This document shows, one piece after another, positions 343-54,923 of a stretch of 64,000 bases of DNA. The DNA is taken from the sequence record MT682709.1. One strand, 5' to 3'. The notes beneath the pieces are model-generated. The model was not told the DNA's origin. It did no database searches and was given only the letters and a program-made list of their open reading frames with translations. The translations under genes and the position numbers were made by a program. The stretch is from Escherichia phage vB_EcoM_SP1. Each line of letters starts with the position of its first letter. Positions within the stretch are counted from its first letter, which is position 1.

Positions 343-615
343 ATGAAAACATTTAAAGAATTTATCAATGAAGCTACTTTTAACGAAAAAGTAAAAATTA
401 GCAAAGCTGTCAAGACTTTGATTGCTGACATCAATTACCTATATGATATTGATTTAACTGACTATGTAACAGTTGGTAACAAACGTAACTTTTTCGTGTT
501 TGACATCTCTGAACTTGACCAGAATCAAATTAACAACATTGAGCGTTTTGCTAATGATAAGGGTCTTCGTCATGAGTCAGCGGGTTATAAAAAATACGCA
601 ATTTATTTAAAATGA
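343..615 (+). CDS. internal-protein-like (capsid-targeting leader MKTFKEFINEA)
   Basis: ATG 343 after GGAGAA RBS (track ORF begins at in-frame TTG 331); N-terminus matches the IP leader consensus. Confidence 0.65.
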   Translation: MKTFKEFINEATFNEKVKISKAVKTLIADINYLYDIDLTDYVTVGNKRNFFVFDISELDQNQINNIERFANDKGLRHESAGYKKYAIYLK

Positions 616-1622: not shown

Positions 1623-1695
1623 TGGGAATTAGCCAAGTTGGTAAGGCACTGGATTTTGATTCCAGGATGCAAAGGTTCGAGTCCTTTATTCCCAG
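1623..1695 (+). tRNA. tRNA-Gln (anticodon UUG)
   Basis: Acceptor stem TGGGAAT/ATTCCCA, anticodon loop TTTTGAT, T-arm GGTTCGAGTCC. Confidence 0.85.
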
Positions 1696-1696
1696 C

Positions 1697-1783
1697 GCGA
1701 GAATGGTCAAATTGGTAAAGGCACAGCACTTAAAATGCTGCGGAATGATTTCCTTGTGGGTTCGAGTCCCACTTCTCGCACCA
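1697..1783 (+). tRNA. tRNA-Leu (anticodon UAA), class II, CCA encoded
   Basis: Acceptor GCGAGAA/TTCTCGC, anticodon loop CTTAAAA, long variable arm, CCA 1781-1783. Confidence 0.85.
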
Positions 1784-1788
1784 AATTT

Positions 1789-1862
<74 letters not shown>

Positions 1863-1872
1863 ATTTAATTTA

Positions 1873-1946
1873 CTCCGTGTAGCTCAGTTTGGTAGAGCGC
1901 CTGATTTGGGATCAGGAGGTCCAAGGTTCAAATCCTTGTATGGAGA
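1873..1946 (+). tRNA. tRNA-Pro (anticodon UGG)
   Basis: Acceptor CTCCGTG/TATGGAG with G-U pairs, anticodon loop TTTGGGA, T-arm CAAGGTTCAAATCCTTG. Confidence 0.8.
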
Positions 1947-1948
1947 CT

Positions 1949-2038
1949 GGAGGCGTGGCAGAGTGGTTTAATGCACCGGTCTTGAAAACCGGCAGTCGCT
2001 CCGGCGACTCATAGGTTCAAATCCTATCGCCTCCGCCA
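1949..2038 (+). tRNA. tRNA-Ser (anticodon UGA), class II, CCA encoded
   Basis: Acceptor GGAGGCG/CGCCTCC, anticodon loop CTTGAAA, long variable arm. Confidence 0.85.
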
Positions 2039-2043
2039 GTTTT

Positions 2044-2119
2044 GTTGATTTAGCTCAGTAGGTAGAGCACCTCACTTGTAATGAGGACGTCGGCGGTTCG
2101 ATTCCGTCAATCAGCACCA
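2044..2119 (+). tRNA. tRNA-Thr (anticodon UGU)
   Basis: Acceptor GTTGATT/AATCAGC, anticodon loop CTTGTAA, CCA encoded. Confidence 0.85.
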
Positions 2120-2120
2120 A

Positions 2121-2195
2121 GGCCCTGTAGCTGGAAGGTTCAAGCAAGCGACTCATAATCGCCAGATGGTGGTTCAATTCCACCCAGGGCCACCA
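2121..2195 (+). tRNA. tRNA-Ile (anticodon CAU, lysidine type as in T4) or Met
   Basis: Acceptor GGCCCTG/CAGGGCC, anticodon loop CTCATAA, CCA encoded. Confidence 0.75.
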
Positions 2196-2204
2196 AATTA
2201 ATTT

Positions 2205-2291
2205 GGGGAGTTATCCCGTAGAGGTAGCGGTGTGGACTGTAAATCCATTGTCATTGCGACTCGGGTGGTTCGACTCCATCACTCCCCACCA
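2205..2291 (+). tRNA. tRNA-Tyr (anticodon GUA), class II
   Basis: Acceptor GGGGAGT/ACTCCCC, anticodon loop CTGTAAA, long variable arm; architecture resembles E. coli tRNA-Tyr. Confidence 0.75.
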
Positions 2292-2295
2292 ATTT

Positions 2296-2370
2296 GGATG
2301 TGTAGCTCAATGGCAGAGCGATCGCCTGTTAAGCGATTGGTTATAGGTTCGAATCCTATCACGTCCGCCA
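2296..2370 (+). tRNA. tRNA-Asn (anticodon GUU)
   Basis: Acceptor GGATGTG/CACGTCC, anticodon stem ATCGC/GCGAT with loop CTGTTAA, T-arm ATAGGTTCGAATCCTAT. Confidence 0.75.
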
Positions 2371-2374
2371 AATC

Positions 2375-2450
2375 CGAGGCATAGCTCAGAAGGAAGAGCA
2401 AGGACCTTCTAAGTCCTAGGTCGTAGGTTCGATCCCTACTGCCTCGACCA
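2375..2450 (+). tRNA. tRNA-Arg (anticodon UCU)
   Basis: Acceptor CGAGGCA/TGCCTCG, anticodon stem AGGAC/GTCCT with loop CTTCTAA, CCA encoded. Confidence 0.85.
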
Positions 2451-2466: not shown

Positions 2467-2817
2467 ATGAAAGGTAATGTTTATTTAGTAGTTCATGATT
2501 TAACATTCTATTTTAATCATAATGACACTGTTATTTCTGAACGTGTAATTAATTTACTTTATCAGCATGCAGATTATGTTTATGTCGAAAACGAATACGG
2601 TCATTGGCAATTTCTCAAAAATCGTTCATTTGGTTTAGATGGTTACGAATACTTTGAACGTAAAGACCTTTTAGATAAAATTCCATTATCTACACAATAT
2701 CAAAATCACAAGTCTTTATATAAATGCCGTCCAATTCGAAATGCTGAATCTGCGTATGAAGTAATTGATTTATGGCGTAAACGTCGTGGACAGGTTGATG
2801 CTTTAAAAGAATACTAA
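2467..2817 (+). CDS. hypothetical protein (116 aa) between tRNA-Arg and the stable-RNA region
   Basis: ATG 2467 after GAGGAAAAT RBS. Confidence 0.55.
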   Translation: MKGNVYLVVHDLTFYFNHNDTVISERVINLLYQHADYVYVENEYGHWQFLKNRSFGLDGYEYFERKDLLDKIPLSTQYQNHKSLYKCRPIRNAESAYEVIDLWRKRRGQVDALKEY

Positions 2818-2821
2818 GAAA

Positions 2822-3123
2822 CCGGGTCGCTACCGGTAAGTCGTCGGACTGATGTTCCCTGGAGTATAGTTTCTCCCACAGTTTTACTGTGTTCTGATTC
2901 TTTACTATCACAGCAGAAACGGCGCACCAAATTATCGATTCGAGGAAATATCTTTGCCGTAAGCCGAGTAGCGTTTTTGACGGAACGTTCGGATATGGTC
3001 GAGATATGGCCTTTTAAAAATATTGAGTAGCGTCAACTACTTAATAACCGGGTTCAAATCCCGGCGTTTCGTACAAACACTTGCCTTAGCAGGTGGAACC
3101 CCGACAAGGTTGCCGCAAGGCTT
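2822..3123 (+). ncRNA. candidate stable small RNA region (T4 species 1/2 RNA-like), contains a tRNA-like T-arm
   Basis: GC-rich, no convincing ORF; CCGGGTTCAAATCCCGG T-arm-like hairpin; possible acceptor pairing CGGAACG/CGTTTCG; ends at a strong terminator. Confidence 0.35.
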
Positions 3124-3151
3124 AGCCCCAGCCGAAAGGTTGGGGCTTTTT
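3124..3151 (+). terminator. rho-independent terminator
   Basis: AGCCCCAGCC-GAAA-GGTTGGGGCT hairpin followed by TTTTT. Confidence 0.65.
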
Positions 3152-3241
3152 AGTTTGAATCACTCGGATAACGCTGTTACGGATAATAACAAAGTAATAA
3201 ATAATTAATAACCAACTGATAGATTATTTCAAGGATTTTAA

Positions 3242-3805
3242 ATGAAAACTTATGCCGAATTTTTAACCGAAGCAGCAAAATTACCATCTGAAGCAGATCT
3301 TACTAAAGTATTCTTTCAATTAGACCCAAAAGACCGTGGCGATTTTCTTAAGTGGAAAGCTAAAGCTATTGAAATGTATAACATCGATAATAGTTCTTTT
3401 ACGATGAGTCAAGAAAATAAATTCAATAAAGCATTTTTCAAAATTTCTAAGAAATTGGCATCTGGCGCTCAGGTTCCTAAATCTGCATTAGCTACTCCTG
3501 AACGTGCACCTGTTAAAATTTCTAAGAATATGTTCGACACTAAAAAATACGTTAATGCTTTGAATAAAGCTCTTGATGCATTGGATGATGCAAAGAAGGC
3601 AGCCCGTGATCTTCAAGACGTGTACACTGATTTTGATCGTAAAACTAAAGGTTCTATTTCAAATAGCGAACGTAATAGTGTAAGTGTTTATTCTGATAGC
3701 CTTGATGTTCTTGGCGATGCGTATACTGAAATTAAAAATCGTATTAACACCGCATCTAAGCTAAAAGCTGCCGCAGAAGCTATAATAACTAAACTGGATA
3801 AATAA
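3242..3805 (+). CDS. internal-protein-like protein with capsid-targeting leader (MKTYAEFLTEAA), 187 aa
   Basis: ATG 3242 with AAGGA RBS; IP-type leader then Lys/Ala-rich helical cargo. Confidence 0.6.
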   Translation: MKTYAEFLTEAAKLPSEADLTKVFFQLDPKDRGDFLKWKAKAIEMYNIDNSSFTMSQENKFNKAFFKISKKLASGAQVPKSALATPERAPVKISKNMFDTKKYVNALNKALDALDDAKKAARDLQDVYTDFDRKTKGSISNSERNSVSVYSDSLDVLGDAYTEIKNRINTASKLKAAAEAIITKLDK

Positions 3806-3811
3806 TTTTAA

Positions 3812-3838
3812 AGCCCTATCTAAATGATAGGGCTTTTT
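3812..3838 (+). terminator. rho-independent terminator
   Basis: AGCCCTATC-TAAAT-GATAGGGCT hairpin plus T-run. Confidence 0.65.
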
Positions 3839-3951
3839 GGTATCTCGGCCTTTCTGGACCTCTCTAGGCATCATTTAGTTTCTACCCTTTATAATATATT
3901 ATCCTATCCTTTAATTGCCCCTTCCATCCCTAGAATTCCCTAAAACTTTTT

Positions 3952-4047
3952 AAAAATTTTTTCACAAAACTGTTTACATCCCTGTTCTTCCATGGTACTA
4001 TATCAATATCAACTACTGATACAGAAAACAACTTGGAGAATGAAATG
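3952..4047 (+). repeat. dispersed early promoter-leader cassette, copy A
   Basis: TTTTCACAAAACTGTTTACATCCCTGTTCTTCCATGGTACTATA... is near-identical to 47485-47570 and similar to 20150-20235 and 21605-21665; GTTTAC 3972-3977, TACTAT 3996-4001. Confidence 0.6.
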
Positions 4048-4308
4048 GATAATTACGGCGAACTGTTCAACTTCTTTATGAAATGCGTTTCAGAAGATTT
4101 CGGTCGTACAGTTAATGATATTAAAGTTATCGGTCCTGACCATCCGATGTTTGAAACTTACGCAGTAATGGGTAATGAAGACGGTCAGTGGTATACTGTA
4201 AAAGTTGTGATTAACATGTTCACTGCTGAAGGTTATGTTAAACTGTCTTCTAAAGTTTACCATGATAACGACGAAATCGCAGAAGAATATTTCAATAATA
4301 TGAAATAA
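4045..4308 (+). CDS. hypothetical acidic protein (87 aa)
   Basis: ATG 4045 after GGAGAA (track ORF starts at in-frame TTG 4033). Confidence 0.55.
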   Translation: MDNYGELFNFFMKCVSEDFGRTVNDIKVIGPDHPMFETYAVMGNEDGQWYTVKVVINMFTAEGYVKLSSKVYHDNDEIAEEYFNNMK

Positions 4309-7627: not shown

Positions 7628-8430
<803 letters not shown>

Positions 8431-8431
8431 T

Positions 8432-8462
8432 GTTTACTTCCTCCAAGGACTTTGATACTATA
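8432..8462 (+). promoter_or_regulatory. T4-type early promoter
   Basis: GTTTAC 8432-8437, GATACTAT -10 region. Confidence 0.5.
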
Positions 8463-8488
8463 CATTCATCAACTACTTGGAGGAAATT

Positions 8489-8902
8489 ATGACTCGTATC
8501 AATTTAACACTTGTTTCTGAACTGACCGACCAACATCTTATGGCTGAGTATCGTGAATTACCACGCGTATTTGGTGCAGTCCGTAAACATGTTCAAAACG
8601 GTAAACGTGTAAAGGATTTTAAAATCTCTCCAACATTTATCTTAGGCACAGGTCACGTAACATTCTTTTACGACAAACTCGAATTTTTACGTTTACGTCA
8701 AATCGAGCTAATCGCTGAATGCTTGAAACGTGGTTTCAAAATCAAGGACACGACTGTCCAGGATATTTCCGACATCCCTGTCGAATTTCGTAATAATTAT
8801 GTCCCGTCCGAAGCGTCCATTGCGATAAGTCAAGCTCGCTTAGATGAAAAAATTGCTCAACGCCCTACTTGGTACAAATACTATGGTAAATCAATTTACT
8901 AA
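8489..8902 (+). CDS. denV: endonuclease V (pyrimidine-dimer DNA glycosylase)
   Basis: [31 protein letters not shown]... matches recalled T4 endo V over its full length; ATG 8489 (track begins at TTG 8477). Confidence 0.9.
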
Positions 8903-8908
8903 GGAAAA

Positions 8909-9169
8909 ATGAAAATGTATCAAGAATTTATCGCTGAAGCAGATGCCAAAGGCCCCAAATTTAAAGTTAAAGCTTTCGTTGGTGATGCAGAAGATTTTGG
9001 CTCATTAAAACGTAATGGGTATTCTTTCCTAGGCGGCGATGGTAGAGAAATAAACACCTATGCAAAACGTAGTGAAATTGCTTATGTTGTAGCAAGCCCT
9101 AAAGTAGATGTTGACGATATTGGATATGATTTTAACAACTTCGGAATTATTTCTGGCGGTAAAGCTTAA
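8909..9169 (+). CDS. internal-protein-like (leader MKMYQEFIAEA), 86 aa
   Basis: ATG with AAGGAAAA RBS; IP-type leader. Confidence 0.65.
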   Translation: MKMYQEFIAEADAKGPKFKVKAFVGDAEDFGSLKRNGYSFLGGDGREINTYAKRSEIAYVVASPKVDVDDIGYDFNNFGIISGGKA

Positions 9170-9172
9170 ACA

Positions 9173-9202
9173 GTTTACGCTTAAGTATTAATATGATATA
9201 AT
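9173..9202 (+). promoter_or_regulatory. T4-type early promoter
   Basis: GTTTAC 9173-9178, TATAAT 9197-9202. Confidence 0.5.
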
Positions 9203-9232
9203 TACTCTATCAAAACAAACAAGGAAACAAAA

Positions 9233-9811
9233 ATGAAAACGTATCAAGAATTTATTGCTGAAGCTTCTGTAGTAAAGGCAAAAGGCATTAATAAGGACGA
9301 GTGGAACTATCGTGGTGGAAACGGCTTTGACCCTAAAACTGCTCCACTTGAACGATATCTAGCCACAAAAGCTTCTGATTTTAAAGCCTTCGCTTGGGAA
9401 GGACTTCGCTGGCGTAACGATCTAAATATTGAAGTTGACGGACTTAAATTTGCTCATATTGAAGATGTTGTTGCTAGTAACTTAGATGCAGCTTTTGTTA
9501 AAGCCGACAGTGATCTTCGTCGCTGGAATTTAAAACTGTTCTCTAAACAAAAAGGCCCGAAGTTTGTGCCTAAAGCCGGTAAATGGGTCATTGATAATAA
9601 ATTAGCTAAGGCTGTCAACTACGCTGGTCTTGAATTCGCCAAGCACAAATCATCATGGAAAGGTCTTGATGCAATGGCTTTCCGTAAAGAATTTGCCGAT
9701 GTTATGGCTAAAGGCGGCTTTAAGGCAGAAATAGATACCTCTAAAGGTACGTTTAAGGACGCTAATGTTCAGTACGCTTATGCCGTTGCTAATGCAGCCC
9801 GTGGTAATTAA
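9233..9811 (+). CDS. ipIII: internal protein III
   Basis: MKTYQEFIAEASVVKAKGINKDEW... near-identical to recalled T4 IPIII. Confidence 0.9.
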   Translation: MKTYQEFIAEASVVKAKGINKDEWNYRGGNGFDPKTAPLERYLATKASDFKAFAWEGLRWRNDLNIEVDGLKFAHIEDVVASNLDAAFVKADSDLRRWNLKLFSKQKGPKFVPKAGKWVIDNKLAKAVNYAGLEFAKHKSSWKGLDAMAFRKEFADVMAKGGFKAEIDTSKGTFKDANVQYAYAVANAARGN

Positions 9812-9852
9812 TAAGGCCTAAGTATAGGCCTATTTACATTTAAAGGAAACAT

Positions 9853-10155
9853 ATGAAAACATATCAAGAATTTATTACTGAAGCGCGAGTGAGTGCAGGT
9901 AAATTAGAAGCCGCTATAAATAAAAAGGCCCATTCATTTCACGATTTGTCCGATAAAGACCGTAAGAAACTTGTAAGCCTTTATATTGACAAAGAGCGTA
10001 TTCTCGCTCTTCCTGGCGCTAATGAAGGTAAACAGGCCAAGCCTTTGAATGCTGTCGAAAAGAAAATTGATAACTTTGCTTCTAAATTCGGTATGTCTAT
10101 GGATGACCTTCAGCAAGCGGCTATCGAAGCAGCTAAAGTAATTAAAGGTAAATAA
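9853..10155 (+). CDS. ipII: internal protein II
   Basis: MKTYQEFITEARVSAGKLEAAINKKAHSFHDL... near-identical to recalled T4 IPII. Confidence 0.9.
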   Translation: MKTYQEFITEARVSAGKLEAAINKKAHSFHDLSDKDRKKLVSLYIDKERILALPGANEGKQAKPLNAVEKKIDNFASKFGMSMDDLQQAAIEAAKVIKGK

Positions 10156-54758: not shown

Positions 54759-54923
54759 ATGAAAACATATAAAGAATTTATTAAAGAAGATATGGTAGCT
54801 GGAGATTCAGGTGGTAATCCTGAAAATATCTCTACTGGAACAACGTCAGGCGCTGTAGTAAATAAAGGTCCTGAACAGATTCCTAAAAAGAAAAAAGAGG
54901 AATCTAAAGAAAAAGAAGAGTAA
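54759..54923 (+). CDS. small internal-protein-like peptide with capsid-targeting leader (MKTYKEFIKED), 54 aa
   Basis: ATG 54759 right after previous stop, ends 3 nt before the gene 61 ATG; Gly/Lys-rich tail; below ORF-track cutoff. Confidence 0.5.
   Translation: MKTYKEFIKEDMVAGDSGGNPENISTGTTSGAVVNKGPEQIPKKKKEESKEKEE

What the first reader, a model, noticed from the sequence alone, without database searches (positions are those of the whole stretch)
3242..3805. Large (187 aa) leader-tagged protein between the stable-RNA region and the e-upstream genes
The N-terminus MKTYAEFLTEAA fits the internal-protein leader, but the cargo is about twice the size of IPII and is Lys/Ala-rich and helical. 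It has its own terminator. It looks like a further injected protein outside the classical ip loci.
Basis: partly seen in the sequence, partly recalled or inferred. Interest (0 to 1): 0.55.

Follow-up and report, generated by a model that had tools for sequence, protein, structure and literature searches.

The report
Unannotated leader-tagged late phage protein
A T4-like phage carries a previously unlabelled 187-residue late gene whose first ten residues match the tag that T4 uses to load "internal proteins" into its head, so it is probably one more protein injected with the DNA, though nobody has yet seen it in virions.

Summary
ORF 3242-3805 (+) encodes a 187-aa basic, Lys/Ala-rich, all-helical protein. 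It lies between the tRNA/stable-RNA cluster and e.8 and has its own terminator.

Its N-terminus, MKTYAEFLTE|A, carries all four experimentally defined determinants of the T4 capsid-targeting sequence: Tyr4, Phe7, Leu8 and Glu10.

The gene is not a one-off. It belongs to PHROG 2280 ("unknown function"), a family found only in T4-like phages and annotated "hypothetical" wherever an annotation was seen. The family occupies the same slot in six genera. Every intact N-terminus keeps the leader. In five other genera an exact T4 late promoter, TATAAATA, lies 25-35 nt upstream; here it is AATAAATA. T4 and T6 lack the gene.

The family is modular: a conserved N-domain, a Pro/Ala/Lys linker, and a swappable C-terminal helical hairpin with no known fold relative.

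Packaging is inferred, not shown:
- A paralogue at the same locus was particle-associated in phage fD1, in a low-specificity proteome.
- A distant orthologue gave zero peptides in purified ValerieMcCarty04 virions.

Verdict: probably a new member of the known internal-protein class at a third ip locus. Its function is unknown, and an anti-defence role rests only on analogy. Interest is moderate.

The parts
3124..3153 (+). Rho-independent terminator that ends the tRNA/stable-RNA (rnaD/rnaC-like) unit. It is the upstream boundary of the cassette.
   Evidence: Terminator scan; fold -21.3 kcal/mol, z = -4.0. It is homologous to the T4 sequence just downstream of rnaC. Relatives that carry two cassettes have this sequence duplicated.
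3196..3203 (+). T4 late-promoter-like octamer AATAAATA (7 of 8 matches to TATAAATA), 38 nt upstream of the ATG.
   Evidence: The octamer occurs only twice on the + strand of the 64-kb window. Orthologues in five other genera have an exact TATAAATA 25-35 nt upstream, directly after a terminator. Activity of the one-mismatch version is inferred, not shown.
3231..3235 (+). Shine-Dalgarno AAGGA, 6 nt before the ATG.
   Evidence: Read directly from the sequence.
3242..3805 (+). CDS of 187 aa. PHROG 2280 member; 20.9 kDa precursor.
   Evidence: pN/pS = 0.044. Identical to the hypothetical protein SP1_0138 of phage vB_EcoM_SP1.
3242..3271 (+). Codons 1-10, MKTYAEFLTE. Predicted capsid-targeting sequence with the prohead-protease site L-T-E|A.
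   Evidence: Y4, F7, L8 and E10 match the determinants summarised in PMC9026906. Across the family: position 4 aromatic 36/36, position 7 F/I 36/36, position 8 L/I 35/36, position 10 E 35/35. It is the only [LI]xE site in the protein.
3290..3460 (+). Conserved N-domain (residues ~17-73, three helices).
   Evidence: Invariant K37, Y46, I48, A64 and F65 across 38 clusters. pLDDT about 77-87 over most of the domain. No Pfam or PDB relative.
3461..3541 (+). Flexible Pro/Ala/Lys-type linker (residues ~74-100). Short here, much longer in other genera.
   Evidence: pLDDT below 50 for residues 80-89. Variable-length PAK-rich columns in A3.
3542..3799 (+). C-terminal antiparallel helical hairpin (residues ~101-186), the exchangeable module.
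3810..3840 (+). The gene's own terminator (11-bp stem, 5-nt loop, T-run). Symmetric, so it could also stop antisense transcription. It is the downstream boundary of the cassette.
   Evidence: T4 homology resumes at 3814.

Best explanation
This is a self-contained late transcription unit: terminator, late promoter, SD, ORF, terminator. It encodes a member of a family restricted to T4-like phages (PHROG 2280) that fills a conserved slot between the tRNA/stable-RNA cluster and e.8.

**Proposed mechanism**
1. The protein is made late in infection.
2. Its first ten residues (MKTYAEFLTE) act as a capsid-targeting sequence that binds it to the scaffolding core of the assembling prohead.
3. The prohead protease gp21 cuts once, after Glu10 (L-T-E|A). 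This releases a 177-aa, 19.7-kDa, pI 9.5 protein that stays inside the head with the DNA.
4. The mature protein has a conserved three-helix N-domain, a flexible linker and a long C-terminal helical hairpin. It leaves through the tail with the DNA at the next infection.
5. It acts before any phage gene is expressed, most plausibly by binding and neutralising a host first-line defence through the exchangeable C-terminal hairpin.

**Status of each step**
- Shown: gene structure, leader determinants, family, synteny, late promoter in orthologues, modularity.
- Inferred: packaging, cleavage, injection.
- Analogy only: anti-defence role.
For: - **Leader.** Y4, F7, L8 and E10 are the CTS determinants (PMC9026906), and an Ala follows the cut. 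The same pattern holds in essentially all family members despite about 30% identity elsewhere.
- **Selection on the peptide.** Leader codons differ synonymously from those of the other ip genes (23-26 of 36 nt identical), so the peptide is selected rather than recently copied.
- **Late, monocistronic expression.** Orthologues in Karamvirus, Tegunavirus, Dhakavirus, Mosigvirus and Jiaodavirus have an exact TATAAATA 25-35 nt upstream, after a terminator. Each intergenic orthologue has its own terminator-like hairpin downstream; in fHe-Yen9-01 the paralogue gp153 follows directly. The window has a 7/8 version.
- **Processing pattern.** There is a single gp21-type site, so the protein would be trimmed, not fragmented.
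- **IP-like properties.** It is basic and of IPIII-like size.
- **Presence/absence polymorphism typical of ip genes.** It occurs in 164 of 697 matching phage records and is absent from T4 and T6.
- **Virion evidence for a paralogue.** fD1 g140 (same PHROG) was flagged particle-associated in the fD1 virion proteome.
- **Precedent.** T4 Ip1, Ip2 and Ip3 each inhibit a distinct GmrSD type IV restriction enzyme (PMC12373910; ipIII on ECOR17).
- **Modularity.** C-domain swapping behind a conserved N-domain is compatible with diversifying exchange of a binding module, an arms-race reading.
Against: - **No direct data.** No virion, cleavage or injection data exist for this protein, and no paper was found that mentions the locus tags searched.
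- **A negative proteome.** The Jiaodavirus orthologue ValerieMcCarty04 gp131 (WKM80661) has zero peptide-spectrum matches in CsCl-purified virions. Classical IPs there have 26 and 66, and even non-structural contaminants are seen. Caveats: its leader is one residue shorter, its C-domain is the other type and contains extra [LI]xE motifs (my reading of the translation), and the stored file was truncated.
- **A weak positive.** The fD1 proteome is unspecific: 113 of 277 products were flagged, including DenV and NudE.
- **Imperfect promoter.** The window's promoter has a mismatch at position 1 and was not tested.
- **Conservation pattern.** The protein is 95-100% identical across nearly all of the 164 phages and syntenic across genera. 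That is more conserved than expected for a hypervariable arms-race effector.
- **Promoter type.** At least three other ip genes in the window (343, 676, 9233) carry early-type promoters and this one does not.
Confidence: 0.55

Rival explanations
1. Prohead-targeted but assembly-only. The leader brings the protein into the scaffolding core, where it acts in head morphogenesis or DNA organisation. It is then expelled or degraded, or is kept at very low copy, so it is not a meaningful injected effector.
For: - Late-only promoter and conserved synteny across six genera look more like a morphogenetic accessory than a hypervariable effector.
- There were zero spectra for the VMC04 orthologue in virions. 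Its C-domain contains additional [LI]xE motifs (IGE, LVE; my reading of the translation).
- IPIII itself has been proposed to act in head morphogenesis (PMC9026906).
Against: - The window protein has only one gp21-type site, so it would not be fragmented.
- T4 and T6 assemble normal heads without the gene.
- The paralogue g140 was detected in fD1 particles.
Confidence: 0.2
2. A late cytoplasmic protein that is never packaged. The IP-like N-terminus would be a shared translation-initiation or recombination module inherited from ip genes, with no targeting function in this context.
For: - ip genes are known to shuffle. Cassettes here are bounded by repeated terminators that can recombine.
- A 54-aa ORF upstream of primase gene 61 also has the leader, so the motif is not restricted to recognised head proteins.
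- The VMC04 proteome is negative.
Against: - The four functionally critical leader positions are conserved across about 30%-identical orthologues, while positions 2, 3, 5 and 9 drift.
- Ten residues of the IPIII CTS suffice to package foreign proteins (PMC9026906). A protein made late with this N-terminus should therefore be packaged by default.
Confidence: 0.15
3. A packaged, generic DNA-associated internal protein. It would neutralise charge or organise DNA in the head and have no specific host target.
For: - pI 9.5 and Lys/Ala richness.
- Orthologues carry long Pro/Ala/Lys linkers resembling DNA-binding tails.
- Sequence conservation within Tequatrovirus is high.
Against: - The linker is short here.
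- The C-terminal domain is swapped wholesale between close relatives, which a generic counter-ion would not need.
- Many phages of the genus do without it.
Confidence: 0.1

Closest known systems
T4 internal protein IPIII (and IPII, IPI): CTS-tagged, gp21-processed head proteins injected with the DNA
   Same: - A ten-residue N-terminal leader with the same determinants (MKTYQEFIAE|A versus MKTYAEFLTE|A).
- IPIII-like size (192 versus 187 aa) and basic charge.
- Dispensable and polymorphic among T-even phages.
- Gene bounded by a terminator.
   Different: - No cargo similarity: hhalign aligns only the leader and BLASTP of cargos finds nothing.
- Different locus (rnaC to e.8).
- Late-type promoter only, whereas three neighbouring ip genes have early-type promoters.
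- Two-domain modular architecture.
- Packaging and any anti-GmrSD activity are untested.
Ip4-Ip10 of T-even phages (Repoila et al. 1994; tested by Silas et al. 2025 without finding targets)
   Same: They are recognised purely by the leader and replace one another at polymorphic loci. Their function is unknown (PMC12373910).
   Different: - Those described sit at the ipI or ipII/III loci (for example Ip5 and Ip6 in T6; Ip4 next to IpIII in SA21RB/RB14).
- This gene is left as a plain hypothetical ORF (RB14ncORF136c) in RB14, whose Ip4 is a named reference.
- I could not read Repoila et al. to exclude that the family was ever named.
The 157-aa leader-tagged paralogue at the same locus (SA21RB_137, fD1 g140, AR1, Bas42)
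   Same: - Same PHROG 2280 (1.1e-59).
- Same slot and same leader type (MKSYAQFLNE|A).
- Same layout: N-domain, PAK linker, helical C-domain.
- Weak C-domain similarity (hhalign 75%).
- Adjacent to the orthologue in SA21RB and fHe-Yen9-01.
   Different: - Different N-domain sequence.
- Exact TATAAATA promoter.
- More widespread: 512 records.
- Flagged particle-associated in fD1, which has not been examined for the 187-aa protein.
Phage P1 Dar proteins and other packaged anti-restriction proteins
   Same: Same concept: proteins loaded into the head and co-injected to block restriction before phage gene expression (PMC12810830, listed).
   Different: Unrelated sequences and a different loading mechanism. 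This is a functional analogy only.

Membership tests
T4-type internal proteins (CTS-tagged IPs) | N-terminal capsid-targeting sequence of about 10 residues, with the targeting determinants at positions 4 (aromatic) and 7 (Phe) | tested here: met
   The window protein has Tyr4 and Phe7. Determinants are from PMC9026906. They are conserved in 36/36 family members with an intact N-terminus.
T4-type internal proteins (CTS-tagged IPs) | Prohead-protease (gp21) site L/I-X-E at positions 8-10, followed by a small residue | tested here: met
   L8-T9-E10|A11. It is the only such site in the protein. Across the family: L/I 35/36, E 35/35, S/A/T at P1' 34/35.
T4-type internal proteins (CTS-tagged IPs) | Present in mature virions in the cleaved form | tested here: inconclusive
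   No data exist for this protein. The paralogue g140 was flagged particle-associated in fD1, in a low-specificity list. The distant orthologue VMC04 gp131 had 0 spectra in purified virions, against 26 and 66 for classical IPs.
T4-type internal proteins (CTS-tagged IPs) | Ejected into the host with the DNA | not testable with these tools
   This needs an infection experiment.
T4-type internal proteins (CTS-tagged IPs) | Small, basic, non-essential, and present or absent among close relatives | tested here: met
   Mature form 19.7 kDa, pI 9.46. Present in 164 of 697 matching records; absent from T4 and T6.
T4-type internal proteins (CTS-tagged IPs) | Expressed at the time of prohead assembly (late transcription) | tested here: inconclusive
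   Orthologues in five genera have an exact TATAAATA. The window has AATAAATA, whose activity is unknown. No transcript data exist.
GmrSD (type IV restriction) inhibitors Ip1/Ip2/Ip3 | Sequence or fold relationship to Ip1, Ip2 or Ip3 cargo, or demonstrated inhibition of a GmrSD enzyme | tested here: not met
   There is no cargo similarity to the window's IPII or IPIII homologues or to other ip genes. Inhibition was not tested. The functional analogy therefore remains a hypothesis.
PHROG 2280 (unknown function) | Full-length match to the family profile | tested here: met
   E = 2.8e-53, residues 1-181 against profile positions 1-178 of 178. The paralogue matches the same profile.
Prohead scaffolding-core proteins (gp22, gp67, gp68 type) | Multiple gp21 sites, so that the protein is fragmented and leaves the head | tested here: not met
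   There is a single [LI]xE site, at the leader.

The most novel reading that the evidence does not exclude
PHROG 2280 is an ancestral third ip locus of the Tevenvirinae that encodes a modular injected-effector platform.

- A conserved N-domain plus linker serves head loading, DNA association or exit.
- Interchangeable C-terminal helical hairpins are "warheads" against host defences other than the GmrSD enzymes targeted by Ip1-3.
- The slot holds one or two tandem paralogues that are gained and lost by recombination between repeated terminators.
Probability: 0.25. Interest if true: 0.65.

Novelty: new member of a known kind. Interest (0 to 1): 0.4.

Why it matters
Injected internal proteins are the first phage molecules to meet host immunity. 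Only Ip1-3 of T4 have known targets, and all three targets are GmrSD type IV restriction enzymes.

If this family is packaged, the ip repertoire gains three things: a third locus, a family conserved across six genera, and a domain architecture in which a binding module is visibly swapped. That gives clear candidates for host-range determinants in the therapeutic T4-like phages that carry it, including many Escherichia, Shigella, Yersinia and Klebsiella phages.

If it is not packaged, it shows that the leader alone is not a sufficient predictor. That matters for genome annotation and for CTS-based protein-delivery engineering.

Tried and rejected
- **Pfam** on the protein and on all 38 family members: only sub-threshold coiled-coil-like noise such as Cytochrome b562 and the ALIX domain.
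- **Profile search against PDB sequences:** nothing below E = 0.07.
- **Shallow-alignment model:** the first AF2 model, built on 10 near-identical sequences, was too poor to use (pLDDT 57.7).
- **Exhaustive phmmer:** it gave one borderline hit to an 869-aa repetitive protein (P0015, E = 8e-4 summed over 5 repeats). I treat it as spurious.
- **BLASTP of the cargo** against the other seven leader-tagged ORFs in the window: no relationship.
- **Literature:** no paper mentions the locus tags, PHROG or VOG identifiers. Repoila et al. 1994 and the JS98 genome/proteome paper are not held. The fPS-65, RB69 and ECLFM1 papers contain no usable virion data for this family.
- **ValerieMcCarty03:** this phage lacks the gene, so only the VMC04 proteome was informative.
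- **"Simple insertion relative to T4":** considered and rejected, because the slot is occupied syntenically in five other genera.
- **Sigma-70 or early promoter upstream:** none was found.

Full report
**1. The observation**

The window is a Tequatrovirus (T4-like phage) genome segment. The 1-kb region matches 697 phage records at 80-99% identity. The protein is 100% identical to one in Tequatrovirus LF73P3 and to the hypothetical protein SP1_0138 of phage vB_EcoM_SP1.

ORF 3242-3805 (+) is the only substantial ORF in the interval and encodes 187 aa beginning MKTYAEFLTEAA.
- Composition is K 14.4% and A 12.8%. The pI is 9.35, or 9.46 without the first ten residues.
- An AAGGA Shine-Dalgarno sits 6 nt before the ATG.
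- Upstream lie ten tRNA genes (1623-2450). Then comes a stretch, 2817-3154, that aligns to T4 71168-70827; this covers rnaD and rnaC and runs past rnaC through the terminator hairpin at 3124-3153.
- Downstream are a second hairpin plus T-run at 3810-3840 (-17.7 kcal/mol, z = -4.5) and then the e.8 homologue at 4033-4308.
- The gene is under strong purifying selection: 12 synonymous against 2 non-synonymous differences to the SA21RB copy, pN/pS 0.044.

**2. The leader**

The motif MK[TM][YF]x[ED]F[ILV]xE opens eight ORFs in the window and none in 200 shuffles. The eight start at 343, 676, 3242, 8149, 8909, 9233 (IPIII homologue), 9853 (IPII homologue) and 54759.

The review of Black's work reports four relevant facts (PMC9026906):
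- The first 10 residues of IPIII suffice for packaging.
- Positions 4 and 7 carry the targeting information.
- Positions 8 and 10 carry the processing information.
- gp21 cuts after L/I-X-E.

The candidate has Tyr4, Phe7, Leu8 and Glu10, followed by Ala. This is its only [LI]xE motif. Its leader codons share only 23-26 of 36 nt with the other ip genes. The similarity is therefore maintained at the peptide level, not by recent gene conversion.

**3. The family**

A single-sequence search of 5.8 billion proteins found only relatives at 89% identity or more, plus partial fragments. The exhaustive HMMER search added one 31%-identical protein, P0013.

Iterating from P0013 gave 46 clusters. Apart from a few fragments they are 186-218 aa long. 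Those with long contigs lie on contigs of about 165-175 kb, and every source name is "hypothetical".

tblastn shows the distant branch in 190 phage records, among them members of Karamvirus, Dhakavirus, Mosigvirus, Jiaodavirus and Tegunavirus. The close branch is in 164 Tequatrovirus records. PHROGs places the protein in phrog_2280, "unknown function".

The alignment (A3) shows four parts:
- A leader. Position 4 is aromatic in 36/36 members, position 7 is F/I in 36/36, position 8 is L/I in 35/36, position 10 is E in 35/35, and P1' is S/A/T in 34/35.
- A conserved N-domain with invariant K37, Y46, I48, A64 and F65.
- A Pro/Ala/Lys linker of variable length.
- A C-terminal helical region of two unrelated types.

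Twenty-six pairs have N-domains at least 85% identical but C-domains at background identity (4-8% in the pairs printed). The C-domain is therefore exchanged as a module.

AlphaFold2 on this alignment gives pLDDT 79.5. It predicts three short helices (residues 17-73), a disordered linker, and a confident antiparallel hairpin (residues 101-186).

**4. The locus**

T4 and T6 have no gene between rnaC and e.8. Relative to T4, window 3155-3813 is extra, and T4 homology resumes inside the second terminator.

This is not a sporadic insertion. The orthologue occupies the same position, after the last tRNA and before e.8/e.6 ... nudE ... e, in five other phages:
- Pet-CM3-4 (Karamvirus)
- fHe-Yen9-01 (Tegunavirus)
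- JS98 (Dhakavirus)
- ST0 (Mosigvirus)
- KP179 (Jiaodavirus)

Many Tequatroviruses carry a second leader-tagged gene here. It encodes 157 aa starting MKSYAQFLNE|A, occurs in 512 records, matches the same PHROG, and has a weakly similar C-domain. In SA21RB it precedes the 187-aa gene and is bracketed by a duplicated copy of the rnaC terminator. In fHe-Yen9-01 the two genes are adjacent in the opposite order. Recombination between the repeated terminators readily explains gain and loss of a cassette. That mechanism is an inference.

**5. Expression signals**

In all five other genera an exact T4 late promoter, TATAAATA, lies 25-35 nt upstream of the ATG, immediately after a terminator. A further terminator-like hairpin follows each intergenic orthologue; in fHe-Yen9-01 the paralogue gp153 follows directly. 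The exact octamer occurs only 8 times on the + strand of the 64-kb window.

The Tequatrovirus copy has AATAAATA at 3196-3203, which occurs twice on that strand of the window. I could not establish whether this one-mismatch version is active.

No sigma-70 or early-type promoter precedes the gene. By contrast, the ip genes at 343, 676 and 9233 have GTTTAC...TAnnnT early-type promoters.

A dedicated late unit is what one expects for a protein needed during prohead assembly.

**6. Direct evidence on packaging**

None exists for this protein. Two public virion proteomes bear on relatives.

*fD1 (weak support).* This Tequatrovirus has only the 157-aa paralogue at the locus (g140). Table S3 of PMC8309999 marks it "PPAP", particle-associated. 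However, 113 of 277 gene products are so marked, including DenV and NudE.

*ValerieMcCarty04 (real negative for a distant orthologue).* This Jiaodavirus has a type-2 orthologue, gp131 / WKM80661, of 194 aa with leader MKFKDFLTE|E.
- In the PSM table, which is sorted by protein id, entries run from WKM80658 straight to WKM80662.
- None of twelve tested peptide sequences from gp131 occurs in the file.
- The two classical IPs next to the lysozyme gene have 66 and 26 matches.
- A non-structural e.5-like protein has 10 matches.

Four factors temper this negative:
- The leader is one residue shorter than the canonical form.
- The C-domain is of the other type and contains extra [LI]xE motifs (IGE, LVE; my reading of the translation). 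These could lead to fragmentation.
- Identity to the window protein is only about 30%.
- The supplementary file was truncated on storage.

**7. Interpretation**

The most economical reading is a CTS-targeted, gp21-trimmed internal head protein at a third, conserved ip locus (confidence 0.55). The function of the mature protein is unknown.

The only precedents are T4 Ip1, Ip2 and Ip3. Each blocks a different GmrSD type IV restriction enzyme (PMC12373910; PMC9391042). Ip4-10 have been tested without result.

The swapped C-terminal hairpin would suit a target-binding module. The strong conservation and synteny fit a more general role equally well. The rivals are an assembly-only core accessory, an unpackaged late protein with a relic leader, and a generic DNA-associated protein. 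They are listed with the experiments that would separate them.

**8. Novelty and score**

Leader-tagged ip genes and their polymorphism are textbook T-even biology, so a specialist would not be surprised by one more.

The new points are:
- The family is annotated as "hypothetical protein" or the like in every record and source name seen here. That includes RB14, whose Ip4 is a named reference.
- It defines a third locus, conserved across six genera.
- It has late-only control.
- It has a modular two-domain architecture with a tandem paralogue.

I rate it a new member of a known kind, with interest 0.4.

Noticed in passing
window 54759-54923 (+): A 54-aa ORF directly upstream of the primase (gene 61) homologue begins MKTYKEFIKE|D. 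That is a full IP-type leader, but Asp follows the predicted cut. The cargo is a low-complexity Gly/Ser/Lys/Glu tail (phrog_1823, unknown function). It is far from any ip locus.
   Followed up: partly
window 2467-2817 (+): A 116-aa ORF (phrog_3355, unknown function) sits between tRNA-Arg and the rnaD-like sequence. In T4, tRNA-Arg and rnaD are adjacent, separated by one base.
   Followed up: partly
L001 6203-6676 (SA21RB); L013 7943-8416 (fD1); L004 4580-5116 (fHe-Yen9-01): A second leader-tagged late gene (157-178 aa; MKSYAQFLNE|A or MLEYSEFLKE|L) shares the slot and the PHROG with the finding. It has an exact TATAAATA promoter, is bracketed by a duplicated rnaC terminator, occurs in 512 phage records, and was flagged particle-associated in fD1.
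   Followed up: partly
window 7664-10155: The gene order around the lysozyme gene differs from T4. Here it is e, a 93-aa leader-tagged ORF (8149-8430, overlapping the end of e; four [LI]xE sites), denV, an 86-aa leader-tagged ORF (8909-9169), the IPIII homologue, then the IPII homologue. T4 has e, ipIII, ipII, denV.
   Followed up: no
window 343-615 and 676-984: Two different leader-tagged genes (90 and 102 aa, both starting MKTFKEFINE|A) occupy the ipI locus. Each is preceded by a T4 early-type promoter.
   Followed up: no
window 1623-2450: There are ten tRNA genes (Gln, Leu, Gly, Pro, Ser, Thr, Met, Tyr, Asn, Arg), against eight in T4. Met, Tyr and Asn are present and Ile is absent. No segB homing-endonuclease gene lies in the cluster.
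   Followed up: no
P0015 (869-aa metagenomic protein): A repetitive protein carries five copies of a ~120-aa unit that weakly resembles the family N-domain (LDPKDRGDFLKWKAKAIEMY versus HPDIDKNDFSKWVNNEINAY), E = 8e-4. It is probably chance.
   Followed up: no
L012 2942-3523 (ValerieMcCarty04 gp117): A 193-aa protein next to the ip genes is annotated "putative terminase large subunit", and its VMC03 counterpart "IpIII internal head protein". It has no IP leader and resembles neither, so both annotations look wrong.
   Followed up: no
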